A stretch of 45,875 nt of DNA. It comes from a virus. Of the stretch, positions 1,630 to 20,829 are shown piece after piece (position 1 is the stretch's first letter; each line of letters starts with the position of its first letter). Position numbers and translations under genes: made by a program. The notes beneath the pieces were generated by a model that did not search any database, was not told the DNA's origin, and saw nothing but the letters and a program-made list of their open reading frames with translations. The stretch spans positions 1 to 45,875 of IMG/VR virus record IMGVR_UViG_3300048919_000216; one strand, 5' to 3'.

Positions 1630-1842
1630 ATGACAGCTAATGACAAACGCACCATTGTACGGAAGAGCGTAGCGGCTCTGAGAGCAAAGCAAGCCGCCGC
1701 AGGCTTAGTGAATGTCAGCATCCCCATGCCGGGGGATATAGTAGCAGAGATTGACCGTTTGAAGCAGGAGCGTGGGGTTTCGTCCCGCGCACCGATATTG
1801 GAAGAGGCCGTCAGGTTTTATTTAGAGCAAACAAGGGCATAA
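1630..1842 (+). CDS. Ribbon-helix-helix (CopG/Arc/MetJ-type) DNA-binding protein, putative copy-control or replication regulator
   Basis: 70 aa. The N-terminal beta strand (KRTIVRKSV...) followed by two helices matches the RHH pattern. It lies directly upstream of the Rep-like gene and is followed by a strong terminator. Confidence 0.6.
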   Translation: MTANDKRTIVRKSVAALRAKQAAAGLVNVSIPMPGDIVAEIDRLKQERGVSSRAPILEEAVRFYLEQTRA

Positions 1843-1845
1843 AGT

Positions 1846-1879
1846 AAAAAGCCCCACCTTTGGCGAGGCGGGGCTTTTT
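1846..1879 (+). terminator. Rho-independent terminator (bidirectional appearance)
   Basis: AAAAAGCCCCACC-loop-GGCGGGGCTTTTT. A GC-rich stem is flanked by an A-run and a T-run, 4 nt after the RHH stop. Confidence 0.8.
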
Positions 1880-1894
1880 GGTCAAGCAGTCAAA

Positions 1895-1931
1895 AACTAT
1901 CTTGGGGCAGTTCGATAACCTCAAGATAGTT
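1895..1931. promoter_or_regulatory. 10-bp perfect inverted repeat AACTATCTTG-N17-CAAGATAGTT upstream of the Rep-like gene
   Basis: The arms are at 1895..1904 and 1922..1931, about 90 nt upstream of ATG 2024. It could be an operator or an origin element. Confidence 0.4.
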
Positions 1932-2023
1932 CAGAATTAACGAACCCGCAAGAGTCTGTCTTTTGCGGAGACGATGATTTTTTGTCTCTTGTCCATGCCC
2001 TCTTTTGAGAGGACAGAGGAACT

Positions 2024-2887
2024 ATGTTCCAGCAGATCGGCGTAGTGCAGGCGAAAACCGGCACCAGACGAACCGGCGCACCCGTGCGCAGAAACTCCCG
2101 CCTGAAGGGCAAATGCGAAGCCGTATTCTGGAAGGCGACGCCCCGCGACGAGGCTCGCGAGATCCTGCTTGCCGCGCGCAAGTATGAGCTTGCCATGAAG
2201 CAACCAGGTAAGCGCACCGGTCCTCTCGGCCACGTTGCGCTTGAAGTGCTGGACTACTTCACCAACCTGGTTGATTTCAACAATGGCCGTCTCGAACCGT
2301 CGATTAGTACGATCATGGAAAAGATCGGTCGCGCACGAGCTGCTGTATGCCGCGCGTTGGACGCGCTGCGCACCCACGGCTTTATCGATTGGCTACGCCG
2401 CTACGAGCCCACCGGCAATGACGGTGCAGGCCCGCAGGTGCAGCAGACAAGCAATGCCTATCGTCTAAGCCTCCCTGCCCGCGCCAAGGCGCTGTTAGGC
2501 AAGTACGCGAGGAAAGCCCCGCCCTTACCCGATGACGTGCAGCAGGCCCGCCAGGAGCGCCAGGACGCGATCAAGGCGCACATGGATAGTCTGTCGTCTG
2601 CCGATCGCTTGCGCGAGACAGTAGAGGACAGGAAGCGCGCCGAGCAGCTCGCCGGCTATGTCGAGCGTGCCGCGCAGAACCGCGCACAGCAGGCCGCTAA
2701 AACCCCTGAGAGGGCATCATCCAAGCAGATGCAGTTCCACTACGTCGAACCAGCTACAGCGAATCCCGCCCTCGCCCGCTTCCGCAAAAATTTGCAGGCA
2801 CGAAAGGCCGGAAAGCTTTTGAATGAGCGTGAGTTCACTGAAAGAACTGAATCCGGTCCTGATTTTTATAATCCTACGGATCAATAA
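2024..2887 (+). CDS. Winged-HTH replication-initiator-like protein (plasmid Rep architecture)
   Basis: 287 aa. GPLGHVALEVLDYF...STIMEKIGRARAAVCRALDALRTHGFIDWLRRY is a wHTH of the type seen in small-plasmid Rep proteins (pBBR1-Rep-like layout). It has a charged coiled C-terminal half, an AGAGGA RBS, and sits in the par/res/RHH backbone. Confidence 0.5.
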   Translation: MFQQIGVVQAKTGTRRTGAPVRRNSRLKGKCEAVFWKATPRDEAREILLAARKYELAMKQPGKRTGPLGHVALEVLDYFTNLVDFNNGRLEPSISTIMEKIGRARAAVCRALDALRTHGFIDWLRRYEPTGNDGAGPQVQQTSNAYRLSLPARAKALLGKYARKAPPLPDDVQQARQERQDAIKAHMDSLSSADRLRETVEDRKRAEQLAGYVERAAQNRAQQAAKTPERASSKQMQFHYVEPATANPALARFRKNLQARKAGKLLNEREFTERTESGPDFYNPTDQ

Positions 2888-2926
2888 GCGGACGCCGCTT
2901 GATCGGGCCGCTACCGCGTCCCTGCG

Positions 2927-2958
2927 GCGGTTCCGAACCGCGTTAAAGTGCGGTTCGG
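2927..2958. terminator. Two mutually exclusive hairpins between the convergent rep-like and resolvase genes
   Basis: One hairpin is GCGGTTC-C-GAACCGC (2927..2941). The other is CCGAACCGC-N8-GCGGTTCGG (2933..2958). AAGCGG-ACG-CCGCTT also lies right after the stop at 2887. Confidence 0.35.
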
Positions 2959-3050
2959 CGGCAACCTATACGCAGTTTCAGCACCGACAACACGCTTGGA
3001 TAGGTCTTTTGGCTCATGAGAGGGTGCAAGGGGAAATGGCGAAGAGAATA

Positions 3051-3653
3051 TTATTCCAAAGCATCCGGAGAGGCGTTTTCAGCTTCGCGTTTAAGTCGTG
3101 CGATCACCTGCCGACTGGCAGCGTATTTGCGGGAGGCACCCGATATGCTCATGCCCCCGCGCAGATCCGCAAGCATCGCTTTCGTTTGCCGTTCGCTCAG
3201 TTTTGGTGGCCGACCGAATTTTTTGCCCCCTGCCCTCGCCCGGTCCTGCCCGGCCCGGGTCCGCTCGATGAGCAGATCCCGTTCGAATTGCGCGACCGCG
3301 TTCAGAACATTCATCGTCATGGCGCCCGCCGAGCTGGTCAGGTCCAATCCGCCGAGCTGGAGGCAATGAACCCTAACCCCGTTTTCGGAAAGCATCTTGA
3401 CCGTGCTGCTGACATCGATCGCGTCGCGCCCCAGCCGATCGAGCTTCGTGACGATCAAGACGTCGTCCGGCTCCAGGCGATCGAGAAGTTTTTGAAACCC
3501 ACCGCGCTTCGATGCGGCCAGACTTCCCGACACGGTTTCCGACACGATCCGGCGCGGTTCTATCTTGAAGCCAGCTGCCTCGATTTCCATGATCTGGTTT
3601 TCGACCGTCTGGCCGACCGTGGACACCCGAACGTAAGCAAAAACCCGCGTCAT
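3051..3653 (-). CDS. Small serine recombinase (resolvase/invertase family), probable multimer resolvase
   Basis: 200 aa. The N-terminal catalytic motif is FAYVRVSTVGQ. Further motifs are LIVTKLDRLGRD and ERTRAG...GRPPKL, and there is a C-terminal HTH. At this size it is not a large serine integrase. Confidence 0.9.
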   Translation of the reverse strand: MTRVFAYVRVSTVGQTVENQIMEIEAAGFKIEPRRIVSETVSGSLAASKRGGFQKLLDRLEPDDVLIVTKLDRLGRDAIDVSSTVKMLSENGVRVHCLQLGGLDLTSSAGAMTMNVLNAVAQFERDLLIERTRAGQDRARAGGKKFGRPPKLSERQTKAMLADLRGGMSISGASRKYAASRQVIARLKREAENASPDALE

Positions 3654-3780
3654 CTTGTTTCCCCTGCCTGAAAATCAGCCCCAGCGTTACGGGCATGCCG
3701 GAAAAGCTTTGAGGGGATTTTAGGGCAGATGCAAGTAAGGTGCCGTCATATGGACGATTTCGGGCATCGTGTTCCGGCTC

Positions 3781-3808
3781 TTGACATGGAAATTGAGTCG
3801 CCTATTTT
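3781..3808 (+). promoter_or_regulatory. Candidate sigma70-type promoter TTGACA-N16-TATTTT
   Basis: The -35 is at 3781..3786 and the -10 at 3803..3808. It lies in the 690-bp non-coding stretch and points toward the small ORFs and parA. Confidence 0.35.
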
Positions 3809-4082
3809 TAAGCGGTTCCCTAAACACCTACAGGTCTTCGTAATGTTTTCGAGGCCAAACCTTCTCGGTGCTGACAATGAAGGTTAAACACCCACAGCAA
3901 GGGAACGTAGTGAAACATGCGGTCGCCACTCGACTAGTTTGGGCAGGTCCGATTCCTTCTGTTGCGTCAGCCGACACGTAAGGACGACCTTAGCGCAGGT
4001 TCACTTCTGAGCGTTCGCGGAGAGACACCATGTTTGGCTTTGCCTTCTGGTGCCTACTGCGGCATGGTCAGGAGTGATCGAT

Positions 4083-4259
4083 ATGCGATCTCAATTGTCC
4101 AAGGCCGCTGTTCAGGCACTTCCAGCTATCCTAATCCTTTTATTCGCAGCGTTCTGCGGTTATGCACTCGTTCGCCTGCTCGATCCTGAAGAGCTCAATC
4201 TCTGGATTTTCAAGTATAAGGCGCGAAGCACGATCATTGAGCAGCTGCCGACAAAATGA
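4083..4259 (+). CDS. Small single-pass membrane protein (58 aa), function unknown
   Basis: A CAGGAG Shine-Dalgarno lies 7 nt upstream of ATG 4083. The hydrophobic helix is ALPAILILLFAAFCGYALV. A 15-codon hydrophobic mini-ORF (4030..4077) precedes it, and its stop overlaps that SD. Confidence 0.4.
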   Translation: MRSQLSKAAVQALPAILILLFAAFCGYALVRLLDPEELNLWIFKYKARSTIIEQLPTK

Positions 4260-4260
4260 T

Positions 4261-4375
4261 GCGTTAACGTCAATGTGCGTCAATGATGACGCAGTATAAC
4301 GCGTCAACGTCAACGTGCGCGCTTGTTAACGCGCCATAAAGAGTTATGCTGCATCTTAACGCTACAACGTTAAAC
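4261..4375. repeat. Centromere-like iterons (GCGTYAACG family) upstream of parA
   Basis: Forward copies: GCGTTAACG 4261..4269, GCGTCAATG 4277..4285 and GCGTCAACG 4301..4309. One reverse copy lies at 4325..4332. A 7-4-7 inverted repeat TGCGTCA-ATGA-TGACGCA lies at 4276..4293. Confidence 0.6.
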
Positions 4376-4390
4376 ATGAAGGACGCGAGC

Positions 4391-5065
4391 ATGCCTGTCA
4401 TCGCAGTAGCAAACCCTAAAGGCGGCGCTGGGAAGTCTACCAGCACGCTAGTTCTAGCAACGACGCTCGCGCGCCAAGGCGCGTCAGTCACGGTTTTGGA
4501 TTGCGACCGCAATCAGCCGATAGCCGGATGGAGGGCAGGGGGGTCTAAAAATCCTGTAGTGGTTGACAGCGCCATCGACGAAGAAAGCTTTAAAGAGAAG
4601 CTGGACCACCACCGCCGCAAGTCGCAATTCGTCTTCGTGGATCTGGAAGGCACCGCCAACCGCCTCATGTCCCGCGCACTCTTCCGCGCTCATCTGGCGA
4701 TCATTCCTATCCAAGCAAGCCCAACAGATGCCGAGCTGGCCGCAAAGGCGATCCATCTGATCAAAGACGAGGGGGAGTCGTTCGATAAGGTCATTCCTTA
4801 CCGCGTTCTTTTCACGCGCACGTCGCCACAGATCAAAACCAAGATCGAACGCCAGATTTTCGAGCAGTTGAGTGGCGGGGAAATTCCCCAGTTCCGAAAC
4901 CACCTGAACGAACGCGCTGCCTATAAGAGCATGTTCTTTCATCAGCTCGACTTGGAGGAGATGGACCCCGCCGAGGTCAATGGCTTGCCCCAAGCCCGAG
5001 ACAACGCGCTGAAACTCACCGCCGAGCTTATCGATATGATTGCAGAGAAGGATGCCGCAGCATGA
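4391..5065 (+). CDS. parA: ParA partition ATPase (small type-Ib, deviant Walker A)
   Basis: The Walker A motif is [13 protein letters not shown] and there is no N-terminal HTH. An AAGGA RBS precedes ATG 4391. In-frame alternative starts exist at 4346 and 4376. Confidence 0.9.
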
Positions 5066-5346
5066 AAGACCTTGGATTTGGAAGCAAGCTGGCGGGTATC
5101 AAGCCGGATGACGAACCAGACATGGATATTCCCGACCGTAAGCTTGACGAGGTTGCCGAGCGTCACGGCTTTGTCTCGCGGGAGCCGATCCAGAAGGTCA
5201 CGCGCCGCAAAGAGGCAGAGCCTTCTGCAAACCTCAATATCCGACCTCCCGTCACGACATATAACCGCTTCGTAAACTGGGCGATGGAAAACCGCTTAAG
5301 CTATCCGGAGGCGCTTAAAGAGCTAATGGATCGCGCCAAGATATAA
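5062..5346 (+). CDS. Small centromere-binding partition protein (ParG-like, C-terminal RHH)
   Basis: 94 aa, ATGA-coupled to parA. The C-terminal segment [32 protein letters not shown] fits a ribbon-helix-helix. Confidence 0.65.
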
Positions 5347-5354
5347 TCACGCAC

Positions 5355-5378
5355 ATGCGTCAACGCGCGTTAACGCAA
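5355..5378. repeat. Second cluster of the same centromere-like repeat, downstream of the par operon
   Basis: GCGTCAACG at 5357..5365 and GCGTTAACG at 5367..5375. Confidence 0.55.
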
Positions 5379-5393
5379 ACGATGAACGTTTAT

Positions 5394-5421
5394 AGAGCCG
5401 CCCGAACTCTCAAGCGGCTCT
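5394..5421. terminator. Hairpin between convergent genes (AGAGCCGC-N12-GCGGCTCT)
   Basis: 8-bp perfect stem with weak T tracts on both sides. Confidence 0.35.
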
Positions 5422-5431
5422 ATCTGCCTTA

Positions 5432-5656
5432 TTACAGCTCATACTCTATCACGAGATCAATATCATCCGTGGCGAGGTTCAGTTGCCGAGCAATATGAGC
5501 CTGCAAACTGTCCTGGTCGAAGAAGCCGTTCCCCAGATCAAACGATGTAGTGACATCGTTTTCATCCCAGTCGCGGATCTCTGTGACCGCAAAAAGGCCC
5601 CCGGCGCCGACTCTTTCAGCGGTCTCTGTTTCTGCAAAAATGTAGTAGTTGGTCAT
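5432..5656 (-). CDS. Highly acidic small protein (74 aa), function unknown
   Basis: 16 Asp/Glu against 3 Arg and no Lys. It lies in a lower-GC segment and is divergent from the next orphan gene. Confidence 0.6.
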   Translation of the reverse strand: MTNYYIFAETETAERVGAGGLFAVTEIRDWDENDVTTSFDLGNGFFDQDSLQAHIARQLNLATDDIDLVIEYEL

Positions 5657-5815
5657 ATGAAAAATCCTATTAAGTGATTGTTATGGTGAGGTTTGTTCCT
5701 CATTACTATTTATGATTCCGCGAGCGCAAAATTCGTCGTTTCAGGCATTTTTTTTCACTTTATTTGAAGAAAGTTTTCTTGACTTTTCGGCCTATGCACA
5801 TGGCGGGCCAGACGC

Positions 5816-5844
5816 TTGACACCTTCCTGAAACAAGAACATTTA
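5816..5844 (+). promoter_or_regulatory. Candidate promoter TTGACA-N17-CATTTA for the 142-aa orphan gene
   Basis: It lies in the AT-rich 208-bp divergent intergenic region. An AAGGAAGGA RBS follows before ATG 5865. Confidence 0.3.
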
Positions 5845-5864
5845 TAGAACAAAAAGGAAGGACC

Positions 5865-6293
5865 ATGCCGCCCCGATTGATGCTAACCCCTGAAGAAATT
5901 CGAACCACGATCAGGAGGCCGCTTAGCCTTCCGATGCTGGTTTACTACGGCCAGGAATGGCAGGTTTGCTATAAGGCCAAAGGCAAGATGCCGGGCGGCA
6001 GGATCGCGATGGCGTGGGTCTATGGCCGGGAAAGCATCTTCTTTTGCGAGGTAGGGCAGGAGAGATACCTGTTCGACTTGCCGAACCCGAATGAGAAACC
6101 TTTTTTCGATAACGCCTTCAATCACAGCGTCGATGAGATCAACGAGGACGGAAGCCGCATTCGAAAGCTGGGTGGCGCGCAAAATGTCATGGCGGCAAAC
6201 GCCATATATCAGGTGCATAAATTTAACTCTTCCGGCATCATCCGGTTGAGCGAGGGCGGCAGGATTATGCGCCGTTCCGATCAGGAAGATTGA
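5865..6293 (+). CDS. Hypothetical protein (142 aa), no recognisable motif
   Basis: Strong RBS and a clean ORF, with lower GC than the structural genes. Confidence 0.6.
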   Translation: MPPRLMLTPEEIRTTIRRPLSLPMLVYYGQEWQVCYKAKGKMPGGRIAMAWVYGRESIFFCEVGQERYLFDLPNPNEKPFFDNAFNHSVDEINEDGSRIRKLGGAQNVMAANAIYQVHKFNSSGIIRLSEGGRIMRRSDQED

Positions 6294-6315
6294 TAAGCTC
6301 TAGTCACTTTTCCCC

Positions 6316-6344
6316 TTGCAATCCTGTATCCAATTGGATACATA
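6316..6344 (+). promoter_or_regulatory. Candidate TA promoter with a 16-bp perfect palindrome operator GTATCCAATTGGATAC (6326..6341)
   Basis: TTGCAA -35 at 6316..6321, then the palindrome spanning the spacer and -10. ATG 6351 follows with no SD. Confidence 0.45.
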
Positions 6345-6350
6345 GAATGC

Positions 6351-6641
6351 ATGAGCACTTTTAAGACATCACCGCAGTTCGAAAGCTGGTTGCAAAACCT
6401 GAAAGACGCCAAGGGCCGCGTTCGTATCATTGCCCGCATCCGGTCGGCAGAGCACGGCAACTTCGGCGATTGCCAGCCGGTGGGCGAGGGTGTTTCGGAA
6501 ATGCGCATTCACTTTGGCCCCGGCTACCGCCTGTACTACACGCGCAAAGGCGAGACCGTTTATTTCCTGCTGATCGGCGGCGACAAGTCCAGCCAGAAGC
6601 GTGACATTCAGAAGGCCATCGAAATGGCCCGCACCCTGTGA
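6351..6641 (+). CDS. Type II toxin, RelE/ParE superfamily (HigB-like 'addiction module killer' family)
   Basis: 96 aa. The motifs F..WL..L.D...RVRI.ARI......GNFGD..PVGEGVSE.RI..GPGYR.YY......V..LL.GGDKS.Q..DI..A match that family. Confidence 0.85.
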   Translation: MSTFKTSPQFESWLQNLKDAKGRVRIIARIRSAEHGNFGDCQPVGEGVSEMRIHFGPGYRLYYTRKGETVYFLLIGGDKSSQKRDIQKAIEMARTL

Positions 6642-6652
6642 AAGGAAGGATC

Positions 6653-6946
6653 ATGACAGAGTTTAAGAAATTCGACGCATCGGAATATCTGCACAACGAT
6701 AGTGACATGCTGGAATATCTGTCCGTCGCCATGGAAGATGAAAACCCGGACGTATTTATCACGGCGTTGAGCGACGTCGCCAAGGCGCGCGGCATGGCAA
6801 AGATCGCGGAAGCGTCCGGTCTTGGCCGTGAAAGCCTGTACAAAGCACTTAAACCCGGCTCCAAGCTTCGCTATGAGACGATGCACAAAATCGTTCACGC
6901 GCTAGGCTTCCAGCTTGTTTTAAAGCCCAGCCTAAGCGCTGCCTGA
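6653..6946 (+). CDS. Cognate HTH antitoxin (HigA-like 'addiction module antidote' family)
   Basis: F.A.EYL......L.YL..A.ED..P......L.DVA.ARGM..IA...GL.RESLYKAL.P....R..T..K...ALG..L. An AAGGAAGG RBS precedes ATG 6653. A GTG at 6638 is an alternative start. Confidence 0.85.
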   Translation: MTEFKKFDASEYLHNDSDMLEYLSVAMEDENPDVFITALSDVAKARGMAKIAEASGLGRESLYKALKPGSKLRYETMHKIVHALGFQLVLKPSLSAA

Positions 6947-8162: not shown

Positions 8163-8597
8163 TCATCGTCTGAGAATGAGAGAGAATAGGTTTTTTACGG
8201 CGTCGGCGAAGGTCACGCCCATCGCCATTGCGCCAAAGCCGACGACTGTCAGGCCTCCGACACCCATGAGTTTCCAGCGCTGAATATCGTCTGTCACGGG
8301 CTTCATTGCCTTGACGTCTTTCGTCACGGTTGAAACGACATCATCCAGCCCTTCGACCGTTGGCTTCATTTCCGAAACATCAGCCTTCACGACGGCGACG
8401 GTTTGTTCGACGTCTCCGACGCGATCCACCATTTCATCGAGCCGCCGATGCACGACAGCCCGACTTTCAGCTGCCTTGTCTTCGGAGCGCCGGGCCTGAT
8501 CTTCCATGCGCCGTATCGAGTCTTTAAGCCCCTCCATTCCCTCTACCAGCCGTCCGAGCTGCTGGTGGATAGACGGATCAAAGTCACCAGGTGCCAT
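8163..8597 (-). CDS. Coiled-coil protein with a C-terminal transmembrane anchor (resembles the Rhizobiales DUF1515 family)
   Basis: 144 aa, charged helical repeats, then LMGVGGLTVVGFGAMAMGVTF near the C-terminus. It is the last gene of the lysis cassette and overlaps the o-spanin end by 14 nt. Confidence 0.6.
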   Translation of the reverse strand: MAPGDFDPSIHQQLGRLVEGMEGLKDSIRRMEDQARRSEDKAAESRAVVHRRLDEMVDRVGDVEQTVAVVKADVSEMKPTVEGLDDVVSTVTKDVKAMKPVTDDIQRWKLMGVGGLTVVGFGAMAMGVTFADAVKNLFSLILRR

Positions 8598-8949
8598 AGC
8601 TCAAACCACCCCCCTTGCAGACGCGGTCTTTGCTACACGCTTGACCGGAACCAAAAGAGGCTCTGGTGTAGTCGTAGAAGGCGGCGCAACGAAGAGTGCG
8701 GCGGTCTACGAAATCCGCAGCAAAGTCCCACCGCAATTGTGTGTTGCGGGGCTTTTCGATTCCGTACTTCGGAATGACCCTGTCCATCTTCTTCCGGCAC
8801 TCTTCCGGTAGATCAGGAAGATTAACACCCGCCGACGTCTTGCCCCGCGTATCAGCGGCGGCAATAAGCCTCGCCTCTTTGCTCGCACAGCCAGCGGCGA
8901 TCATCATCGCTCCAGCGGTAATCACCGTCATCCATGTTTTGATTGTCAT
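8584..8949 (-). CDS. Outer-membrane spanin lipoprotein (o-spanin, Rz1/LysC-like)
   Basis: An internal start gives MTIKTWMTVITAGAMMIAAGC with the lipobox AAGC. The gene starts inside the i-spanin gene and runs past its end, which is the overlapped architecture. Confidence 0.7.
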   Translation of the reverse strand: MTIKTWMTVITAGAMMIAAGCASKEARLIAAADTRGKTSAGVNLPDLPEECRKKMDRVIPKYGIEKPRNTQLRWDFAADFVDRRTLRCAAFYDYTRASFGSGQACSKDRVCKGGGLSYGTW

Positions 8950-9235
8950 CTTTGATTGCCTGTTCGAGTTGGGCTTCGAGCTTCTGTTGGGTGAGGGCGT
9001 CGGCCACCGCCCGCTTGCGGTAGTCTTCGAGCGCCAGCGCAGCGGCGTTGCGCTGGCGTTCCATTTCGGCGGCCTTCGCTTCAGCGGCTGTCTTTTCCGA
9101 AAGCAAAACGTAGCCTTTGAGCAACGCCGCATCATGTGAGGAGAGCCACAGCCGGAAGCCGCCAATAGCCAGCAAGACGCAAATGATGAGGGCGGCTAAG
9201 CGCCCTAGGAGTGACGTCGGGAGAAGGAAGCTCAT
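8852..9235 (-). CDS. Inner-membrane spanin (i-spanin, Rz/LysB-like)
   Basis: N-terminal TM segment LLGRLAALIICVLLAIGGF, then a coiled coil. ATG 9235 overlaps the endolysin stop (ATGA). Confidence 0.7.
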   Translation of the reverse strand: MSFLLPTSLLGRLAALIICVLLAIGGFRLWLSSHDAALLKGYVLLSEKTAAEAKAAEMERQRNAAALALEDYRKRAVADALTQQKLEAQLEQAIKDDNQNMDDGDYRWSDDDRRWLCEQRGEAYCRR

Positions 9236-9819
9236 AGCCCGCTCACGCACAGCTCGGCTTCACCGACGCGTAGGCCGTCGCCCATCTCGCGACGGTTGAC
9301 CAGGCCGCGTACGATCCGCTTACCTGCCTTGTTGAAGGCCGTCTGAGCTTCGCAGGCAAACCGCCACATGCTGGCTTCGATGCGACCCTTTGCGGTCGAT
9401 CGGCACCATGCGTCGACCCCGAAATTGTAAGCGCCCGATATCATCGAAGCCCGAACGCTGACCGGCGCTTTCGCGAGGTTTGGCGAGCATTCCATGATCT
9501 TCTGGTAGTAGTCGTCATGCACCCGGCGAAGCAGCATGTCGAAGCATTGCGCCTTCGTCTTCGTCATGCCGGGACCGATGCCCTTCGTTTCTCCGTAGCA
9601 AATATCCCAGATCTTGGCGAAAGGATCCCAATGGGATTTCAGAACCAGCCCCTCCCAAGGGATGATTGCTTTTTCGACTGCCAGTATAACGGCAGGATCC
9701 ATCTTCTGCTCTGTGGCGTAGCGATCATAGATCGCATAGCTGCCACTGGCGATGCCAAGGAGGACGGAAGCAATTGCAGCTCTACCGCGCTTCGTCGGCG
9801 TGATCTTGTTGATCGGCAT
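9232..9819 (-). CDS. SAR endolysin, phage lysozyme (GH24, P21-R-like)
   Basis: N-terminal weakly hydrophobic Gly/Ala/Ser-rich segment AAIASVLLGIASGSYAI. The catalytic region is WEGLVLKSHWDPFAKIWDICYGET (E-x8-D ... CYGxT). Confidence 0.85.
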   Translation of the reverse strand: MPINKITPTKRGRAAIASVLLGIASGSYAIYDRYATEQKMDPAVILAVEKAIIPWEGLVLKSHWDPFAKIWDICYGETKGIGPGMTKTKAQCFDMLLRRVHDDYYQKIMECSPNLAKAPVSVRASMISGAYNFGVDAWCRSTAKGRIEASMWRFACEAQTAFNKAGKRIVRGLVNRREMGDGLRVGEAELCVSGL

Positions 9820-10027
9820 CGATCATACCTTTCTGAACGAGGATTCGGGAAATGAAGGCGGCACAGGTCGCGCCGCCCGAAAGCGCAGCGAACAAGCCGC
9901 GCGGGATTTCGAAGTAACCGTCAATGATGGGAAGGAAGACTTCGATGCCGGACAAGAGACCGGCAATCAGGATCCATCGAATGGACCAAGCGCGTTTTAG
10001 CACCTGCCACTTATTGGCGATAAACAT
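9782..10027 (-). CDS. Holin (two TM helices, pinholin-like)
   Basis: 81 aa with two hydrophobic helices and a charged C-terminus. It overlaps the endolysin start and sits at the head of the lysis cassette. Confidence 0.65.
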   Translation of the reverse strand: MFIANKWQVLKRAWSIRWILIAGLLSGIEVFLPIIDGYFEIPRGLFAALSGGATCAAFISRILVQKGMIDADQQDHADEAR

Positions 10028-10083
10028 GGGGGTTTCCGGATTGTTAGAGATAAACGCTAAGAGCGTCCCTAGAGATCGGCCTG

Positions 10084-10263
10084 TTAGTCCGCCTGTGGCG
10101 AGGCCGTCTGTTCTGCTTTGAAGGCATTGATCCGGTCATCGCGCACGATTGGCGGGACATCATGCGGAACATGCAGCGTGTTCGTGTTTCCCTCTGGATA
10201 CACCACGGAGACGGTAATGTTGCCTTGCGCGTCGTACTGCAAGTAAAGCTCGACTTCTTCCAT
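10084..10263 (-). CDS. Small hypothetical protein (59 aa; below the ORF-track cutoff)
   Basis: ATG 10263 abuts the stop of the upstream gene (10264). Translation: MEEVELYLQYDAQGNITVSVVYPEGNTNTLHVPHDVPPIVRDDRINAFKAEQTASPQAD. Confidence 0.4.
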   Translation of the reverse strand: MEEVELYLQYDAQGNITVSVVYPEGNTNTLHVPHDVPPIVRDDRINAFKAEQTASPQAD

Positions 10264-11067
10264 TCACGCCACCTTGAAGAATATGCCAGCGTAACCGCTG
10301 TTGTTGCCTCTGCTAAAGTTTTGGCCGGTTAGATCAGGCCAAACGCCGAAAGCTTGAGTGTTCCCCAAGAACGAAACCGATGATGCCGTTCCTGACGCCA
10401 CCTGTGATGCCGTACCGCCAAGAAGGGCGGCGATGAAGGTCGAGTTAGAACCAAAGGCTTGAAAAACGGCTGTTGTAGTGTCGCCGTTTATGCCCATCCA
10501 GTAGAGGCCGGGATTGAGCGTTATGTTTCCGCCGACCAGAGCGCCACTCATCGCGCCGGTAGTGCCAGCCGACATATTGGCAGTAGCGCCAAGAACATTG
10601 CCGGAGGGGAGCTTCGTGACGGGATCAGCGGCATAGATCGCAAGCTGAAAAGCTTTGCCGCTTTCGGCAGTGGTCACGCGAACCGCTAATTCCGATATCG
10701 TAACCCGCTCTTTGATGACGATCGGATGAAACTTGATCTGCCCGCCAACGACTGCGGCCCCGCCAGAGACAATCGTATTGATCCCTTGATAATAGTTCCC
10801 CGGCGTGTAGCCGAAGAAATCGGAATTATCTTGCCGAACCCAAGACGCCGCCCCAGCTGCTGCATCTCGGCAAATGTACTCGATACCCGTTGCGGTATTG
10901 AGCCACTTGGAGTTTACCGAGAAGCCATCGTTCGCATCGTCAGTGACAGTCGGATTTGTCGTTGATGCTACATTTTTAGGAAGGCCGTCGATCGCCTCCA
11001 ATGCAGCATTGATCATGGCGCGAGCTTCAGCGCCGGTTGCTTTGCTACCGATCTTTCCGATAGGCAT
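10264..11067 (-). CDS. Gly/Thr/Ala-rich virion-associated protein (fibre or appendage-like), function unknown
   Basis: 267 aa from MPIGKIGS. The start shares 1 nt with the upstream stop (TGATG). The composition is typical of beta-rich fibre proteins. Confidence 0.6.
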   Translation of the reverse strand: MPIGKIGSKATGAEARAMINAALEAIDGLPKNVASTTNPTVTDDANDGFSVNSKWLNTATGIEYICRDAAAGAASWVRQDNSDFFGYTPGNYYQGINTIVSGGAAVVGGQIKFHPIVIKERVTISELAVRVTTAESGKAFQLAIYAADPVTKLPSGNVLGATANMSAGTTGAMSGALVGGNITLNPGLYWMGINGDTTTAVFQAFGSNSTFIAALLGGTASQVASGTASSVSFLGNTQAFGVWPDLTGQNFSRGNNSGYAGIFFKVA

Positions 11068-11210
11068 CAGGGTGCATCCTTCCAAATTGCGGCATCATCC
11101 CAAACGCCGTCGTCATTCCAAACGCCTCTCGCCAAAATCCAAGCCAACACCGGCGCTAAGGCTAAGGGGCGGCTGGCGGCGAGACCGAAACCAAGAGAAA
11201 ATCCGCTCAT
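11067..11210 (-). CDS. Tiny coupled ORF (47 aa) with a W-x-D/N-D repeat tail
   Basis: MSGFSLGFGLAASRPLALAPVLAWILARGVWNDDGVWDDAAIWKDAP. It has an ATGA overlap upstream and a TGATG overlap downstream. Confidence 0.35.
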   Translation of the reverse strand: MSGFSLGFGLAASRPLALAPVLAWILARGVWNDDGVWDDAAIWKDAP

Positions 11211-11491
11211 GCGCGTGGTTCCTTGAAGCCTCGTACGGCAGTCTCGATCGGCGTTGCAGTCCTGATAGAAACCACGTTACCAGGCGATAGACCGGTCGTG
11301 ATTTCACGGGTGAAACCATGCTCCAAGATCATGTAATCTTTAGTATCCGGATCTGGAGCGCCTTTCGAAATGCAGAGGTAAACGGGTTGCTGGCAGTCCA
11401 CCTGCACGCCAAATCGAGAATATGTCGCGCCATCAACGATCTCCTGCCATTGAGCAGCGCCGGGCGCTTCAAAAGTGAGCGTTACTTCCAT
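11207..11491 (-). CDS. Small hypothetical late protein (94 aa)
   Basis: An AAGGAA RBS precedes ATG 11491 (MEVTLTFE...). The longer 11554 version overlaps gpD. Confidence 0.5.
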   Translation of the reverse strand: MEVTLTFEAPGAAQWQEIVDGATYSRFGVQVDCQQPVYLCISKGAPDPDTKDYMILEHGFTREITTGLSPGNVVSIRTATPIETAVRGFKEPRA

Positions 11492-11514
11492 AGGTCGGTT
11501 CCTTGATTGAAGTT

Positions 11515-12678
11515 TTAGTTTTCGTCGGTGCGCCCCAGACGAGGCGTGAGCCACTGCGACGGCGTCTTAGGCGTGCCAGGCGCGCTATTCGGCGCGACCT
11601 TTCCGTAGTCCTTCGCTTTCGTCGACGAGCTGCTGTCGAAAGAGTTTTCCGCGTCGGACTCGCCGCCTTCCGAGGAGGAAGACTTTCCATCGTAGAGTTT
11701 GCCGGAAATGTCCGTGGTAAAGGTGCCTTTCGCCGCATACTTGTGCGTCGCCGTGTCGATCACGTATGGAACGCCATCGAGACCGGGACGGATGCGGGCG
11801 TAAAGCAGCGGCGCACCGGCGCAAATCGAAGTGTCGCCGATCACCGTGACCGAGGTGCTGCCCTCGCCACGCTTTAGGCTTTTAGCTTTTGCCTGCGCAG
11901 CCTTATCGGCTTCAGCGGGTGAAGAGAACGCCTCTGGAATGCGATAGACGCTATCGCCGTCCGCTTCCGCATCCGCCTCTATTTCGACGCGCTGCGCCTT
12001 GTCGCTGTCCTGATAGTAAGCAACGACCTTGCTGTACTTCGTCCGATCGCCGACTTCGAACTTTAGGGTGCCGAGCTGCGCAATTTCAGGCGTAACGATG
12101 ACGCTACCAATGTTCTTGCCGCTCGCGGCTTTACCCGAACCGAGGCTGGAAAAGAGCAAGCGGCTTTGTTTGATCGAGAACAAGCCATTATGCCGCTCCG
12201 CAAGCCGCCGCAAAAAATGGATGTTGCTTTCATCCTGTTGGCCGATCCAGTCATAAGTGAACTTGGATAGTTCGGGATCGATGGCAGGCGTCAGGCCGCT
12301 TTCCTCAGCGATCTGCGAGACGATATCGCCCAGGGTTTTCTTGTCCCATGCGCGTTCCTGCCGCTCCTTCAGCTTGCCGCTTCGGAAGTCCACGGCATTG
12401 CCAGAAATCTTCATGCTGTAGGGCAGGCAATCGCAACTGATCTTGTCAGCAGTGAAGGTGCCAAGCGATGCAAGATTGCTGTCGTAGCCCATCCTGACGC
12501 CGATTATCGCACCCTTTCGCGGCAAAGCGAGGAAGTTCGGCGGGCCGTCGTTAAGTTCGATATCGATGGTATCCGATTTCAGACCTTCTTTGTCGGTCAC
12601 AGTGACAGACTTCAGTCGCTCGTAGAAACCGCCTGCGACCGGCGCACCATCAATGGTGATTTCGACGCGTGGCTTCAT
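11515..12678 (-). CDS. Late control gene D / tail protein D (P2 gpD family)
   Basis: 387 aa. The family-typical N-terminus is P...I.IDG.....F..RL.S..V.D..G..SD...I.L.D, plus the IHFLRRLAERHNG motif. It follows gpU and gpX. Confidence 0.85.
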   Translation of the reverse strand: MKPRVEITIDGAPVAGGFYERLKSVTVTDKEGLKSDTIDIELNDGPPNFLALPRKGAIIGVRMGYDSNLASLGTFTADKISCDCLPYSMKISGNAVDFRSGKLKERQERAWDKKTLGDIVSQIAEESGLTPAIDPELSKFTYDWIGQQDESNIHFLRRLAERHNGLFSIKQSRLLFSSLGSGKAASGKNIGSVIVTPEIAQLGTLKFEVGDRTKYSKVVAYYQDSDKAQRVEIEADAEADGDSVYRIPEAFSSPAEADKAAQAKAKSLKRGEGSTSVTVIGDTSICAGAPLLYARIRPGLDGVPYVIDTATHKYAAKGTFTTDISGKLYDGKSSSSEGGESDAENSFDSSSSTKAKDYGKVAPNSAPGTPKTPSQWLTPRLGRTDEN

Positions 12679-12680
12679 GG

Positions 12681-12893
12681 CTAGTCCCAGAGGCTGACGA
12701 GGCGCGCTTGCGTCGTGGTGGATGAGAAGGCGGGCATGATGATCTTAGTGCCGATCGGCAGCACCGGGCCCAGCGCCGCGAGGCCGGGATTGGCCTCAAT
12801 GACCGTTTCAACGACTTTTGCCGTTCGGCCATAATGCGCGAGGCAGGCGAGATCGACCGTCTCTCCCTGCTTTGTCGTGTAGATATCTGACAT
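12681..12893 (-). CDS. Tail protein X (P2 gpX, LysM-like)
   Basis: 70 aa: Y....G.T.D......YG......E.V...NPGLA....LP.G..I..P. Confidence 0.8.
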   Translation of the reverse strand: MSDIYTTKQGETVDLACLAHYGRTAKVVETVIEANPGLAALGPVLPIGTKIIMPAFSSTTTQARLVSLWD

Positions 12894-12899
12894 GGAAAA

Positions 12900-13364: not shown

Positions 13365-13444
13365 GGAAGACTCTCCAAAATGCGAGGACTCGACTCCCTC
13401 CGACCGATCTGTATTTTCGGCCTCGGTAATAGTCGGGGGTTTGC

Positions 13445-13996: not shown

Positions 13997-13998
13997 CT

Positions 13999-16550: not shown

Positions 16551-16648
16551 GATGGAACCTCTAAGGAAAGCGCACACGGCGCGGCAGTGCGGTCGATTGA
16601 CAGCGCACGATGGGTTTGGAATAGATCTGAGAGATCGAGGAACAGACT

Positions 16649-16831: not shown

Positions 16832-16836
16832 GGCCG

Positions 16837-17351: not shown

Positions 17352-17364
17352 GTCTGGCTACTCC

Positions 17365-19387: not shown

Positions 19388-19398
19388 GTGTCGCCTCC

Positions 19399-20821: not shown

Positions 20822-20829
20822 AGATCACC

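What the first reader, a model, noticed from the sequence alone, without database searches (positions are those of the whole stretch)
1630..6946. Phage-plasmid lifestyle: full maintenance backbone and no integrase
One 5-kb block holds a Rep-like initiator, an RHH regulator, a small serine resolvase (200 aa, so not a large serine integrase), a type-Ib ParA plus RHH centromere-binding protein with flanking repeats, and a RelE/HigB-type TA pair. The rest of the circle is a complete temperate phage: CI/Cro immunity, lambda-type head, P2-type contractile tail and lysis genes. I found no tyrosine recombinase, large serine integrase, transposase or protelomerase in any frame. This predicts a circular, low-copy extrachromosomal prophage (P1-like strategy) built from an unrelated lambda-head/P2-tail chassis in a high-GC, probably rhizobial host.
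Basis: partly seen in the sequence, partly recalled or inferred. Interest (0 to 1): 0.7.

Follow-up and report, generated by a model that had tools for sequence, protein, structure and literature searches.

The report
Agrobacterium phage that lives as a plasmid
This 45.7-kb circle is a complete temperate phage with no integrase; instead it carries a full plasmid maintenance kit built on the classic Agrobacterium pTAR replicon, so it is a solid but unsurprising new example of the known "phage-plasmid" lifestyle.

Summary
Window 1630-6946 encodes, in order:
- a CopG-type RHH protein;
- a RepA that matches the Swiss-Prot replication protein of Agrobacterium plasmid pTAR (BLASTP 8e-95);
- a 200-aa gamma-delta-like serine resolvase with a three-subsite res-like array beside it;
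- a 224-aa type-Ib ParA, and a 94-aa partner with a predicted RHH-like C-terminus;
- CGTYAAYG repeat clusters on both sides of the par operon;
- a RelE/ParE-type toxin with its HI1420 antidote.

HMM sweeps of all called genes and the ten longest alternative ORFs found no tyrosine or large serine integrase, transposase or protelomerase. Called genes cover 92% of the sequence, and the largest gap is 272 bp.

The contig ends in an exact 127-bp overlap, so the assembler closed a 45,748-bp circle. It is collinear at 70-92% aa identity with pAtCFBP5507b, a 46,243-bp circular plasmid in a finished A. salinitolerans genome. Siblings in over ten Agrobacterium/Rhizobium assemblies lie only on contigs of 49.4 kb or less.

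A second, phage-type initiator sits in the Cro-side early operon. The element therefore has separate maintenance and lytic replicons, as P1 does, but built from unrelated parts.

Verdict: phage-plasmid (confidence about 0.8). It is a new member of a known kind, of moderate interest. The extrachromosomal state of this contig is inferred, not measured.

The parts
1630..1842 (+). 70-aa CopG-family ribbon-helix-helix protein. It is probably a regulator of the replicon (inferred).
   Evidence: Pfam RHH_1 5.8e-8. Kept next to repA in all siblings, and in a Rhodobacter contig with a 44% RepA.
1846..1879 (.). G+C-rich hairpin with T/A runs on both sides. It is terminator-like and separates the RHH gene from repA.
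   Evidence: Inverted repeat, 14-nt arms, 93% complementary. Terminator scan hit. Conserved in the siblings.
1895..1931 (.). 13-nt inverted repeat in the repA leader. It is a candidate operator (inferred).
   Evidence: repeat I12. Its right arm is invariant in 8 relatives.
2024..2887 (+). RepA, a 287-aa plasmid replication initiator of the pTAR family with a winged-helix core.
   Evidence: BLASTP 8e-95 to Swiss-Prot P15394. Identity is 77-80% in the two segments that align in frame. 1022 homologues, some named replication protein A. Present in 154 PLSDB plasmids. AlphaFold model shows a wHTH. Weak PHROG replication-initiator hits.
2888..3050 (.). Conserved non-coding stretch downstream of repA. 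It is a candidate cis-acting region, possibly oriV (inferred).
   Evidence: 86-89% nucleotide identity to six siblings, against 71-73% for the adjacent resolvase gene. Its folding energy is not exceptional.
3051..3653 (-). 200-aa small serine recombinase of the resolvase/invertase family. It most likely resolves plasmid multimers.
   Evidence: Pfam Resolvase 1.6e-35. Full-length alignment to gamma-delta resolvase, 1.4e-23. PHROG DNA invertase 2e-54. Too short for the extra domains of large serine integrases.
3665..3766 (.). res-like array directly upstream of the resolvase gene. It consists of three inverted pairs of TGCCNGNAA-type half-sites (exact matches at 3665, 3687, 3696 and 3758; degenerate copies starting near 3719 and 3741).
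   Evidence: 4 of the 18 window matches fall in these 102 bp. In the sibling L001 the co-varied motif TGCTCAAAA occurs 3 times in 46 kb, all at the same position. Alignment.
4262..4315 (.). Upstream centromere/operator-like repeat cluster (parS-like) in front of parA.
   Evidence: 5 CGTYAAYG copies in 54 bp. Window total is 20 against 7.4 +/- 3.0 expected. Same motif upstream of parA in L001.
4391..5065 (+). ParA, a 224-aa type-Ib Walker partition ATPase. The longest ORF starts at 4346.
   Evidence: Pfam CbiA, VirC1, MipZ and AAA_31. PHROG ParA-like 5e-31. ParF of TP228, 2.2e-16. Homologues are 224 aa. NCBIfam ParA_partition scores 110 bits, below its cut-off of 180.
5062..5346 (+). 94-aa ParB/ParG-like partner, translationally coupled to parA. 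It has a disordered N-terminus and a C-terminal strand-helix-helix region.
   Evidence: No Pfam, PHROG, NCBIfam or PDB sequence hit. 99 homologues, always 'hypothetical'. AlphaFold helices at 64-76 and 81-91 with pLDDT 87-95. Most of the top fold matches are RHH proteins (Arc, MatP, ORF56, TacA, AmrZ), but all at E>1.
5356..5377 (.). Downstream repeat palindrome with the same motif as the upstream cluster.
   Evidence: (repeat I10). The same motif lies downstream of the partner gene in L001.
5432..5656 (-). 74-aa ORF of unknown function.
   Evidence: No hit in Pfam, PHROGs, NCBIfam or PADLOC.
5865..6293 (+). 142-aa ORF of unknown function that appears to travel with the par/TA cassette.
   Evidence: 59-62% identical copies in four siblings. 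A 142-aa gene sits between the par genes and an HI1420-type antidote on a 238-kb non-phage Agrobacterium contig; its homology to this ORF was not checked. No family hit.
6351..6641 (+). 96-aa RelE/ParE-superfamily toxin (HigB/Gp49-like).
   Evidence: Pfam Gp49 1.6e-6. PHROG toxin 3e-33. NCBIfam TIGR02683, 131 bits against a cut-off of 62.85.
6638..6946 (+). 102-aa HTH antidote (HI1420 family, HigA-like). It overlaps the toxin stop codon by 4 nt.
   Evidence: Pfam dnstrm_HI1420 1.7e-32. NCBIfam TIGR02684, 104 bits against a cut-off of 53.7.
36306..37505 (-). Second, phage-type replication initiator (399 aa) in the Cro-side early operon. It is probably the lytic replicon.
   Evidence: PHROG phrog_270 replication initiation protein, 1.3e-30. 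Pfam HTH_36.
42422..43539 (.). Immunity region: Cro-like gene 42422-42697(-), CI 42767-43399(+) with an S24 autocleavage domain, and operator blocks at 42674-42735 and 43506-43539.
   Evidence: Pfam HTH_3 plus Peptidase_S24. 34-nt arms, 91% complementary, flank cI.
8163..35451 (-). Lysis, P2-type contractile tail, lambda-type head and packaging genes. This is the complete virion module.
   Evidence: Pfam hits. TerS and a neck protein by PHROGs. Collinear with L001 at 66-92% aa identity.
45749..45875 (.). Exact copy of bases 1-127. This is the assembler's overlap that closes the circle; the unit length is 45,748 bp.

Best explanation
The window is the closed genome (45,748 bp) of a temperate myovirus-type phage of Agrobacterium/Rhizobium whose prophage is a circular plasmid rather than a chromosomal insert.

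In the lysogen, a LexA-like CI repressor (inferred) keeps the lytic genes off. The 5.3-kb block then maintains the DNA.
- A pTAR-family RepA initiates replication at a nearby origin. The conserved non-coding DNA flanking repA is the candidate.
- A small RHH protein probably tunes this.
- A gamma-delta-like serine resolvase acts on a three-subsite res next to its gene and converts replicon dimers to monomers.
- A type-Ib ParA ATPase and its 94-aa DNA-binding partner segregate copies through short repeats on both sides of the par operon.
- A RelE/ParE-type toxin with its antidote kills or arrests cells that lose the element.

On SOS induction CI would cleave itself. The Cro-side early operon would then express a CII-like regulator, two DNA methyltransferases, a second phage-type initiator (the lytic replicon) and a NusG-like factor. 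Lambda-type heads, P2-type tails and lysis genes follow.

What is shown: the gene identities, the repeats, circular closure, collinearity with a deposited circular plasmid, and the absence of any integrase.

What is inferred: the origin position, the roles of the RHH protein and the resolvase, low copy number, inducibility and infectivity.
For: Maintenance genes and sites.

The RepA family is a real plasmid replicase.
- It matches Swiss-Prot P15394, the 'Replicating protein' of pTAR.
- The family occurs in 154 PLSDB plasmids, including 9-21 kb Agrobacterium plasmids and pAgK84, where it is annotated repA.

No integrase, transposase or protelomerase.
- Pfam was run on all called genes and on the ten longest alternative ORFs. 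PHROGs was run on the block genes, the second initiator and the unknowns.
- Called genes cover 92% of the sequence and the largest uncovered gap is 272 bp.
- There is no dif-like site for Xer-mediated integration.

Circularity and comparative evidence.
- The contig has an exact 127-bp terminal overlap.
- It is collinear end to end with pAtCFBP5507b, a 46,243-bp circular plasmid of a finished A. salinitolerans genome. That plasmid has the same RHH-RepA-resolvase-ParA-partner block and no integrase.
- Seven further loci from isolates and metagenomes show the same junctions between phage genes and the block.
- All contigs on record with this RepA are 49.4 kb or shorter, and six of them are 45.7-49.4 kb. 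A metagenome scan found no long contig with a close RepA.

Temperate and complete: CI with an S24 domain and flanking operators, a CII-like activator, a full virion and lysis set, and a second initiator in the early operon.
Against: - There is no physical evidence for this contig: no coverage ratio, no junction reads and no plasmid preparation.
- A circular assembly can also come from an excised or replicating integrative phage. Mesorhizobium MesoLjLa5 is deposited as a circular plasmid, yet it carries a tyrosine integrase and no rep or par genes.
- RepA has no Pfam or NCBIfam model, and its predicted structure matches only generic winged-helix proteins.
- I could not retrieve pTAR ParA or ParB for direct comparison.
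- The RHH fold of the 94-aa protein rests on an AlphaFold model whose fold matches are not significant.
- No cultured phage has a TerL above 35% identity, so virion production has never been seen for this lineage.
- The origin is not located: no clear iterons were found, and the conserved downstream region does not fold exceptionally.
Confidence: 0.8

Rival explanations
1. It is an ordinary integrative temperate phage caught as its excised or replicating circle. It would integrate through the small serine recombinase, host Xer recombinases or an unrecognised recombinase, and the Rep/Par/TA genes would be accessory cargo.
For: A circular assembly alone cannot tell the two apart. A related-head phage, MesoLjLa5, is deposited as a circular 'plasmid' although it has an integrase at the equivalent genome position. 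The recombinase's catalytic domain also matches the N-terminus of a PHROG integrase family (phrog_95, 3.8e-27).
Against: - The recombinase is 200 aa and aligns over its full length to gamma-delta resolvase. It lacks the large C-terminal domains of serine integrases.
- It sits beside a three-subsite res-like array.
- There is no dif-like site.
- No relative lies on a contig longer than 49.4 kb or next to chromosomal genes.
- A complete replicon, partition system, resolution system and addiction module together would be an odd cargo for an integrating phage.
Confidence: 0.07
2. It is a plasmid carrying a domesticated or defective phage (a tailocin-like or cryptic element). It would be maintained as a plasmid but no longer produce infectious virions.
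For: No isolated phage is related; the best TerL match in 50,697 phage records is 35% identical. Every relative comes from bacterial assemblies or metagenomes.
Against: - All modules needed for a virion, for packaging and for lysis are intact: TerS, TerL, portal, protease, decoration protein, capsid, neck, sheath, tube, tape measure, baseplate, fibres and lysozyme.
- They are conserved at 66-92% aa identity with a sibling, without visible decay.
- CI keeps its S24 autocleavage domain.
Confidence: 0.11
3. It is an assembly chimera in which a small pTAR-type plasmid was wrongly joined to a phage contig.
For: pTAR-type replicons are common on small Agrobacterium plasmids. The par/TA cassette also occurs on a non-phage 238-kb contig.
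Against: Both junctions recur in a finished genome and in seven or more independent assemblies. These are the junction from the DUF5131 operon to RHH-RepA and the junction from the TA pair or ParB to Dam, lysis and tail genes.
Confidence: 0.01

Closest known systems
pAtCFBP5507b (NZ_CP109971.1), a 46,243-bp circular plasmid of Agrobacterium salinitolerans CFBP5507
   Same: It is collinear over nearly the whole genome. Amino-acid identities: RepA 87%, ParA 92%, 94-aa partner 78%, resolvase 72.5%, RHH 72%, TerL 92%, portal 89%, capsid 85%, CI 89%. It has the same par repeats and a res-like array, and no integrase.
   Different: - It is annotated only as a plasmid.
- It carries a BrnT toxin, LigD, an SOS-response peptidase and a DUF2806 gene where the window has the RelE/HI1420 pair.
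- It has a different methyltransferase and early-gene set and different lysis genes.
Plasmid pTAR of Agrobacterium tumefaciens (RepA, Swiss-Prot P15394). It is listed as a representative type-Ib partition system with a 192-308-aa ParA and a 46-131-aa ParB (PMC3235114).
   Same: The RepA is homologous: 64% overall, and 77-80% in the two in-frame segments. The partition layout is the same: a small ParA, a roughly 94-aa partner and short repeats at the par promoter. That pTAR ParB binds such repeats and represses the operon is my recollection of Kalnin et al. 2000; the paper is not held in the library.
   Different: pTAR is described as a tartrate-utilisation plasmid, not a phage (PMC4231840). 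I could not retrieve pTAR ParA, ParB or parS sequences, so identity of the partition cassette is untested.
Phage-plasmid P1 (and the phage-plasmid class of Pfeifer et al. 2021, PMC7969092)
   Same: The same strategy, function by function:
- a plasmid initiator for maintenance and a separate lytic replicon;
- ParA/ParB partition;
- a site-specific recombinase for dimer resolution;
- a toxin-antitoxin addiction module;
- a repressor-controlled lytic programme;
- no integrase.
PMC7969092 states that phage-plasmids need no integrase, may encode dimer-resolving recombinases, and that known ones encode toxin-antitoxin systems.
   Different: I found no evidence that the window's components belong to the P1 families. 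Here the parts are a pTAR-type RepA, type-Ib partition and a serine resolvase with res. PMC3235114 places P1 partition in type Ia. The other P1 parts (iteron RepA, tyrosine Cre/lox, Phd/Doc) are from my own knowledge. The virion combines a lambda-type head with a P2-type tail.
pLM21S1 of Sinorhizobium sp. LM21 and Rhizobium phage RHEph10, the phage-plasmids already reported in Rhizobiaceae (PMC5537653, PMC7969092)
   Same: An extrachromosomal prophage in a rhizobial host.
   Different: pLM21S1 is 117.5 kb and uses a RepC-like (repABC-type) replication system (PMC5537653). I found no sign of relatedness: megablast of bases 1-25000 found no phage record, and tblastn with TerL listed neither pLM21S1 nor RHEph10 among its matches.
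Mesorhizobium sp. L-2-11 'plasmid' MesoLjLa5 (NZ_AP023261.1, 56.7 kb)
   Same: Related lambda-type head module (TerL 70% identical). A DUF5131-containing early operon has the same orientation relative to the tail and lysis genes.
   Different: It has a tyrosine site-specific integrase where the window has the maintenance block, and no rep or par genes. Its tail is Mu-like, and it encodes a primase/P4-alpha type replication module.

Membership tests
Phage-plasmid (sensu Pfeifer et al. 2021, PMC7969092) | Encodes the functions of a temperate phage: lysogeny control, packaging, virion structure and lysis | tested here: met
   CI/Cro/CII-like genes, TerS and TerL, portal, protease, capsid, sheath, tube, baseplate, fibres and lysozyme.
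Phage-plasmid (sensu Pfeifer et al. 2021, PMC7969092) | Encodes plasmid replication and/or partition functions | tested here: met
   pTAR-family RepA. Type-Ib ParA with partner and repeats.
Phage-plasmid (sensu Pfeifer et al. 2021, PMC7969092) | The prophage is physically extrachromosomal in the lysogen | not testable with these tools
   Indirect evidence only: circular closure, a sibling deposited as a circular plasmid, and all related contigs 49.4 kb or shorter.
Phage-plasmid (sensu Pfeifer et al. 2021, PMC7969092) | Produces infectious virions | not testable with these tools
   The gene set is complete, but no cultured relative exists.
pTAR-type replicon | RepA homologous to pTAR RepA (P15394) | tested here: met
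   BLASTP 8e-95, 64% identity, and 77-80% in the in-frame segments.
pTAR-type replicon | Origin of replication of the pTAR type next to repA | tested here: inconclusive
   The conserved non-coding flanks (81-89% nt identity) are candidates. No clear iterons were found, and no pTAR ori sequence was available for comparison.
Type-Ib partition system (criteria as summarised in PMC3235114) | [quoted passage not shown] | tested here: met
   224 aa. The Walker box starts at residue 9 of the 224-aa form. The best structural relative is ParF of TP228.
Type-Ib partition system (criteria as summarised in PMC3235114) | Small partner protein of 46-131 aa encoded downstream | tested here: met
   94 aa, overlapping the parA stop codon. 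It co-occurs with this ParA allele in relatives.
Type-Ib partition system (criteria as summarised in PMC3235114) | The partner is a ribbon-helix-helix DNA-binding protein (ParG-like) | tested here: inconclusive
   The AlphaFold model has an extended segment followed by two helices, with pLDDT 87-95. Most of the top fold matches are RHH proteins, at rmsd about 1.7 A over about 35 residues for the best ones, but all at E>1. No sequence-family hit.
Type-Ib partition system (criteria as summarised in PMC3235114) | [quoted passage not shown] | tested here: met
   CGTYAAYG clusters at 4262-4315 and 5358-5375, conserved in position in L001. Binding was not tested.
Small serine resolvase with a res site (Tn3/gamma-delta type) | Roughly 185-200-aa protein with an N-terminal catalytic domain and a C-terminal HTH | tested here: met
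   Pfam Resolvase covers residues 4-144. The alignment to gamma-delta resolvase covers residues 3-185.
Small serine resolvase with a res site (Tn3/gamma-delta type) | A res site with several dimer-binding subsites adjacent to the gene | tested here: met
   Three inverted half-site pairs in 3665-3766. A co-varying motif occupies the same place in L001. Function is inferred.
Small serine resolvase with a res site (Tn3/gamma-delta type) | It is not an invertase: no pair of inverted crossover sites flanking an invertible segment | tested here: met
   No strong inverted repeats flank the tail-fibre genes or any segment near the recombinase gene.
Large serine or tyrosine integrase, transposase or protelomerase (integrative or N15-like linear lifestyle) | Presence of the corresponding catalytic protein | tested here: not met
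   No such Pfam or PHROG hit in the called genes or the ten longest alternative ORFs. PHROGs covered the block genes, the second initiator and the unknowns only. The largest uncovered gap is 272 bp.
P1 group of phage-plasmids | Homology to P1 RepA, ParA/ParB (type Ia), Cre or the P1 virion genes | tested here: not met
   The components map to other families: pTAR RepA, type-Ib ParA, a serine resolvase, and a lambda-head/P2-tail virion. Megablast of bases 1-25000 against 50,697 phage records found nothing.
RelE/ParE-type toxin with HI1420 antidote (type II TA) | Both proteins score above the curated NCBIfam cut-offs and are adjacent | tested here: met
   TIGR02683: 131 bits against a cut-off of 62.85. 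TIGR02684: 104 bits against 53.7. The genes overlap by 4 nt.

The most novel reading that the evidence does not exclude
These elements form an undescribed, genus-spanning group of Agrobacterium/Rhizobium phage-plasmids built on the pTAR/pAgK84 replicon family. Their RepA-resolvase core is fixed, while the ParAB/TA stability cassette is swapped with ordinary large plasmids.

If so, the classic pTAR-type small plasmids and this phage lineage share and exchange one backbone. Phage infection could then displace, by incompatibility, resident pTAR-family plasmids such as biocontrol plasmid pAgK84. The 44-kb pTAR itself might be a relative or derivative of such a phage-plasmid.
Probability: 0.3. Interest if true: 0.5.

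Novelty: new member of a known kind. Interest (0 to 1): 0.38.

Why it matters
Phage-plasmids are well established, with P1, N15, SSU5 and hundreds predicted (PMC7969092). The lifestyle itself is therefore not news.

What this element adds:
- It is a clean, fully parsed example in Agrobacterium/Rhizobium, a group of agricultural importance. The only rhizobial phage-plasmids named in the papers I could search are the unrelated repC-type pLM21S1/RHEph10 and the siphophages B1VFA and V1VFA-S, reported with parA, parB and repC (PMC12509600).
- It ties a temperate phage to the pTAR replicon family that drives many small agrobacterial plasmids, including pAgK84.
- It shows that a RefSeq 'plasmid' (pAtCFBP5507b) is in fact a phage genome.
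- It shows the partition cassette being exchanged between siblings and with a non-phage replicon.

In practice it offers a candidate transducing or engineering vehicle. It also raises a possible source of plasmid incompatibility in Agrobacterium strains.

Tried and rejected
- Megablast of bases 1-25000 against 50,697 phage records found no match.
- RepA has no model in Pfam or NCBIfam. By PDB sequence search it gave only a marginal IclR hit. A fold search of the AlphaFold model returned only generic winged-helix regulators, so structure did not add specificity.
- The 94-aa partner gave only noise by PDB sequence search and non-significant fold matches.
- I tried to identify pTAR ParA and ParB among the homologues. 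None is named as such. The 1,376-bp NCBI record with a 90% identical partner is an anonymous WGS contig. The Kalnin et al. 2000 paper is not held.
- An iteron search around repA found no convincing repeat family. The conserved downstream region does not fold better than shuffled sequence (z = -0.9).
- Rfam and tRNA scans found nothing, so there is no tRNA-type attP hint.
- A dif-like site for Xer-mediated integration was not found.
- I tried to prove circularity of a sibling IMG/VR contig by finding the split DUF5131 gene at both ends. Only one end was retrieved.
- PADLOC gave no defence-system hit for the unknown block genes; the only match was a weak NsnC hit to the RelE-type toxin.
- Literature searches for this group found no description of it. 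The supplement of PMC7969092 is not held, so I cannot exclude that a relative is listed there.
- A full six-frame HMM sweep was not feasible. I scanned all called genes and the ten longest alternative ORFs, and argued from coding density for the rest.

Full report
**1. The observation**

The window is 45,875 bp, and its first 127 bases are repeated exactly at its end. This is the usual signature of an assembler closing a circle, so the unit genome is 45,748 bp.

- A 70-aa CopG-type RHH protein lies at 1630-1842 (Pfam RHH_1, 5.8e-8).
- A 287-aa protein lies at 2024-2887.
- A 200-aa serine recombinase lies at 3051-3653 on the minus strand (Pfam Resolvase 1.6e-35). It aligns over its full length to gamma-delta resolvase at 1.4e-23.
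- A ParA-type ATPase follows (Pfam CbiA, VirC1, MipZ; PHROG ParA-like 5e-31).
- A 94-aa gene overlaps the ParA stop codon.
- A RelE/ParE-type toxin and its HI1420-family antidote follow. Both score above NCBI's curated cut-offs: 131 bits against 62.85, and 104 bits against 53.7.

ParA most likely starts at 4391, giving 224 aa as in all homologues, not at the first ATG at 4346.

The "flanking repeats" are real. CGTYAAYG occurs 20 times in the window against 7.4 +/- 3.0 expected. Five copies lie within 54 bp just upstream of parA (4262-4315), and two or three lie in a palindrome just downstream of the 94-aa gene (5358-5375).

**2. What the "Rep-like" protein is**

It has no Pfam or NCBIfam model and only weak PHROG hits to replication initiators (2e-5 to 4e-3).

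A search of 5.8 billion proteins returned 1022 homologues. Among them is Swiss-Prot P15394, the "Replicating protein" RepA of Agrobacterium tumefaciens. From my own knowledge, this is the plasmid pTAR protein.
- BLASTP gives 8e-95 and 64% identity.
- In the two segments that align in frame (residues 1-105 and 151-232) identity is 77-80%.
- The middle part of the 1988 entry does not align with any modern homologue. I infer old frameshift errors.

The same family occurs in 154 deposited alphaproteobacterial plasmids. These include 9-21 kb Agrobacterium plasmids and pAgK84, where it is annotated repA.

An AlphaFold model shows a winged-helix core. The fold search returned only generic winged-helix proteins. 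The assignment as a plasmid initiator therefore rests on homology, and that homology is strong.

**3. Partition, resolution and addiction**

*Partition.* The closest solved relative of ParA is ParF of TP228 (2.2e-16). Its 224 aa and the 94-aa partner fit the type-Ib criteria as summarised in PMC3235114, which names pTAR as a representative of that type.

The partner has no family hit. Its 99 homologues are all "hypothetical". The AlphaFold model has a disordered N-terminal half, then an extended segment and two confident helices (pLDDT 87-95). Most of the top fold matches are ribbon-helix-helix proteins (Arc, MatP, ORF56, TacA, AmrZ), but all at E>1. The RHH claim is therefore plausible, not proven.

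*Resolution.* Directly upstream of the resolvase gene I found three inverted pairs of TGCCNGNAA-type half-sites in 3665-3766. In the sibling plasmid the half-site has co-varied to TGCTCAAAA. Its only three occurrences in 46 kb sit at the same place.

This is the layout of a Tn3/gamma-delta-type res site. No inverted crossover sites flank the tail-fibre genes or any nearby segment. I therefore read the enzyme as a multimer resolvase rather than a host-range invertase (about 0.7 confidence).

**4. No integrase**

- Pfam scans covered all called genes, the unannotated small genes and the ten longest alternative ORFs.
- PHROG scans covered the block genes, the second initiator and the unknowns.
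- Neither library gave a tyrosine recombinase, large serine integrase, transposase or protelomerase.
- The only "integrase" hit is the resolvase's catalytic domain matching the N-terminus of a 651-position profile.
- Called genes cover 92% of the circle, and the largest uncovered gap is 272 bp, so nothing of integrase size is hidden.
- There is no dif-like site and no tRNA gene.

**5. The rest of the element**

- The head is lambda-type: gpA terminase, lambda-family portal, ClpP-type protease, gpD decoration protein and gpE capsid.
- The tail is P2-type: sheath, tube, gpD and gpJ.
- A TerS and a neck protein and a lysozyme complete a virion and lysis set.
- CI (42767-43399) has HTH_3 plus a Peptidase_S24 autocleavage domain. 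It is flanked by 34-nt operator blocks that are 91% complementary.
- A CII-like activator is present.
- The Cro-side early operon also encodes a second initiator at 36306-37505 (phrog_270, 1.3e-30).

The element thus has one replicon in the maintenance block and another in the lytic operon. P1 has the same logic (oriR/RepA and oriL/RepL, from my own knowledge).

**6. Relatives**

*The sibling plasmid.* Megablast found one plasmid record, pAtCFBP5507b. It is a 46,243-bp circular plasmid of the finished genome of A. salinitolerans CFBP5507. The window is collinear with it almost end to end:

| Protein | aa identity |
|---|---|
| RepA | 87% |
| ParA | 92% |
| 94-aa partner | 78% |
| Resolvase | 72.5% |
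| TerL | 92% |
| Portal | 89% |
| Capsid | 85% |
| CI | 89% |

PGAP annotated no integrase there. The par repeats occupy the same two positions.

*Other siblings.* A Rhizobium rhizogenes scaffold and five IMG/VR contigs of 38-49 kb carry the same RHH-RepA-resolvase block joined to the same phage genes. The RepA clusters include proteins from A. pusense, A. fabrum, A. tumefaciens, Agrobacterium sp. LAD9 and Rhizobium sp. AN5.

Across the 17 contigs on record the longest is 49.4 kb, and six are 45.7-49.4 kb. A metagenome scan found no long contig with a close RepA. Integrated prophages would normally sit in large chromosomal contigs, so this pattern fits a separate replicon.

*Cassette exchange.* The RepA-resolvase core is constant, but the partition cassette is not. 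Three siblings carry a ParA only 37-38% identical and lack the 94-aa partner. The window's ParA-partner cassette (partner 96% identical) also sits on a 238-kb non-phage contig of A. cavarae, followed by a 142-aa gene and an HI1420-type antidote.

*A caution.* Mesorhizobium "plasmid" MesoLjLa5 has a TerL 70% identical and a similarly placed DUF5131 operon. Where the window has its maintenance block, MesoLjLa5 has a tyrosine integrase, and it has no rep or par genes. This looks like the integrative counterpart of the same head lineage. It also shows that a "circular plasmid" label is not proof of plasmid lifestyle.

*Cultured phages.* No cultured phage has a TerL above 35% identity.

**7. Mechanism**

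The most likely model (confidence about 0.8) is a phage-plasmid.
- The lysogen holds the genome as a circular plasmid.
- The pTAR-type RepA replicates it from an origin in the conserved non-coding DNA flanking repA. Those flanks are 81-89% nt identical to siblings, against 71-73% for the neighbouring resolvase gene.
- The resolvase and res convert dimers to monomers.
- ParA, its partner and the repeats partition the copies.
- The RelE-type TA pair punishes loss.
- CI autocleavage on SOS would switch on the early operon, with its own initiator, and then the late genes.

Gene identities, repeats, synteny and closure are shown. The origin position, the roles of the RHH protein and the resolvase, copy number and inducibility are inferred.

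Rivals:
- an integrative phage caught as a circle (0.07);
- a defective phage on a plasmid (0.11);
- an assembly chimera (0.01, refuted by the recurring junctions).

**8. Comparison and novelty**

The element works like P1 function by function, but I found no evidence that any component is homologous to the P1 parts. It is not N15-like, because it has no protelomerase.

The rhizobial phage-plasmids named in the searchable literature differ from it. pLM21S1/RHEph10 is 117.5 kb and uses a RepC-type system (PMC5537653, PMC7969092). The siphophages B1VFA and V1VFA-S are reported to carry repC and parAB (PMC12509600).

I found no paper describing this pTAR-replicon group. The supplementary lists of the main catalogue are not held.

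The finding is correct and well supported, but it is a new member of a well-known kind. Interest is moderate (0.38). The most novel reading not excluded concerns exchange and incompatibility between this phage lineage and the pTAR/pAgK84-type plasmids. I give it about 0.3 probability.

Noticed in passing
window 1-127 and 45749-45875: An exact 127-bp terminal direct repeat. This is an assembler overlap that indicates a closed circle of 45,748 bp. Genes near the ends (for example 12-266) are therefore duplicated in the window.
   Followed up: yes
window 36306-37505 (-): A second, phage-type replication initiator (phrog_270, 1.3e-30) lies in the Cro-side early operon. The element therefore carries two unrelated initiators, one for maintenance and one probably for lytic replication.
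   Followed up: partly
window 7134-7973 (-), 38023-39831 (-), 39828-41180 (-): Three DNA methyltransferases: a D12-class Dam, a C5-cytosine methylase and a 450-aa protein with an MT-A70 N6-adenine methylase domain. From reading the sequence and from the PGAP label on the counterpart gene in the sibling plasmid, the last appears to have a ParB-like N-terminal domain, although Pfam reported only MT-A70. It is not a partition ParB. Together they look like an anti-restriction set.
   Followed up: partly
window 42674-42735 and 43506-43539: The cI gene is bracketed by near-identical 34-nt blocks in inverted orientation (91% complementary). The left block is part of a longer palindrome between cro and cI. 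This looks like two operator sets, so the rightward operon that runs towards the maintenance block may also be under CI control.
   Followed up: no
window 13445-13996 (+): A 183-aa protein with a GYF_2 domain and several apparent membrane helices is encoded on the opposite strand inside the tail operon. The position and orientation suggest a moron.
   Followed up: no
L094 (A. cavarae contig JBNWDH010000008.1, 113421-133705); L002, L006 and L008: The window's ParA-partner cassette (partner 96% identical) sits among metabolic genes on a 238-kb non-phage contig, followed by a 142-aa gene and an HI1420-type antidote. Three sibling phage-plasmids carry a ParA only 37-38% identical and lack the 94-aa partner. 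The stability cassette is exchanged independently of the RepA-resolvase core.
   Followed up: partly
L010/L011 (NZ_AP023261.1, Mesorhizobium plasmid MesoLjLa5): This deposited 56.7-kb circular 'plasmid' has TerL 70% identical and a tyrosine integrase at the position equivalent to the window's maintenance block. It has no rep or par genes, so it is probably an excised integrative phage rather than a plasmid.
   Followed up: partly
P0013 (Swiss-Prot P15394) against window 2024-2887: The 1988 pTAR RepA entry matches at 77-80% in residues 1-105 and 151-232. It is unalignable across the winged-helix wing, which is nearly invariant in all modern homologues. The database entry probably contains frameshift errors.
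   Followed up: partly
window 2888-3050: This 163-bp non-coding stretch downstream of repA is 86-89% nt identical to six siblings. It is more conserved than the adjacent resolvase gene (71-73%) and contains a perfect GCGGTTCCGAACCGC palindrome. It is a candidate origin or other cis element; its fold is not exceptional.
   Followed up: partly
L016 (IMGVR_UViG_3300048858_000048, 52.6 kb): This is another DUF5131-bearing viral contig, from a different lineage. It carries a 56% identical RepA, a 33% resolvase and a 32% ParA. The pTAR-type replicon may therefore have been taken up by more than one phage lineage.
   Followed up: no
window 3767-4255: The spacer between the res-like array and the par repeats is about 300-400 bp longer than in most siblings. 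It holds a 69-aa ORF (4050-4259) with an apparent membrane helix. The sibling pAtCFBP5507b has a DUF2806 gene inserted at the same place, so this looks like an insertion hot spot.
   Followed up: no
window 35640-36299 (-): A NusG-domain protein (Pfam NusG 2.4e-12) lies between the early replication genes and the packaging genes. It may be an antiterminator for late transcription.
   Followed up: no
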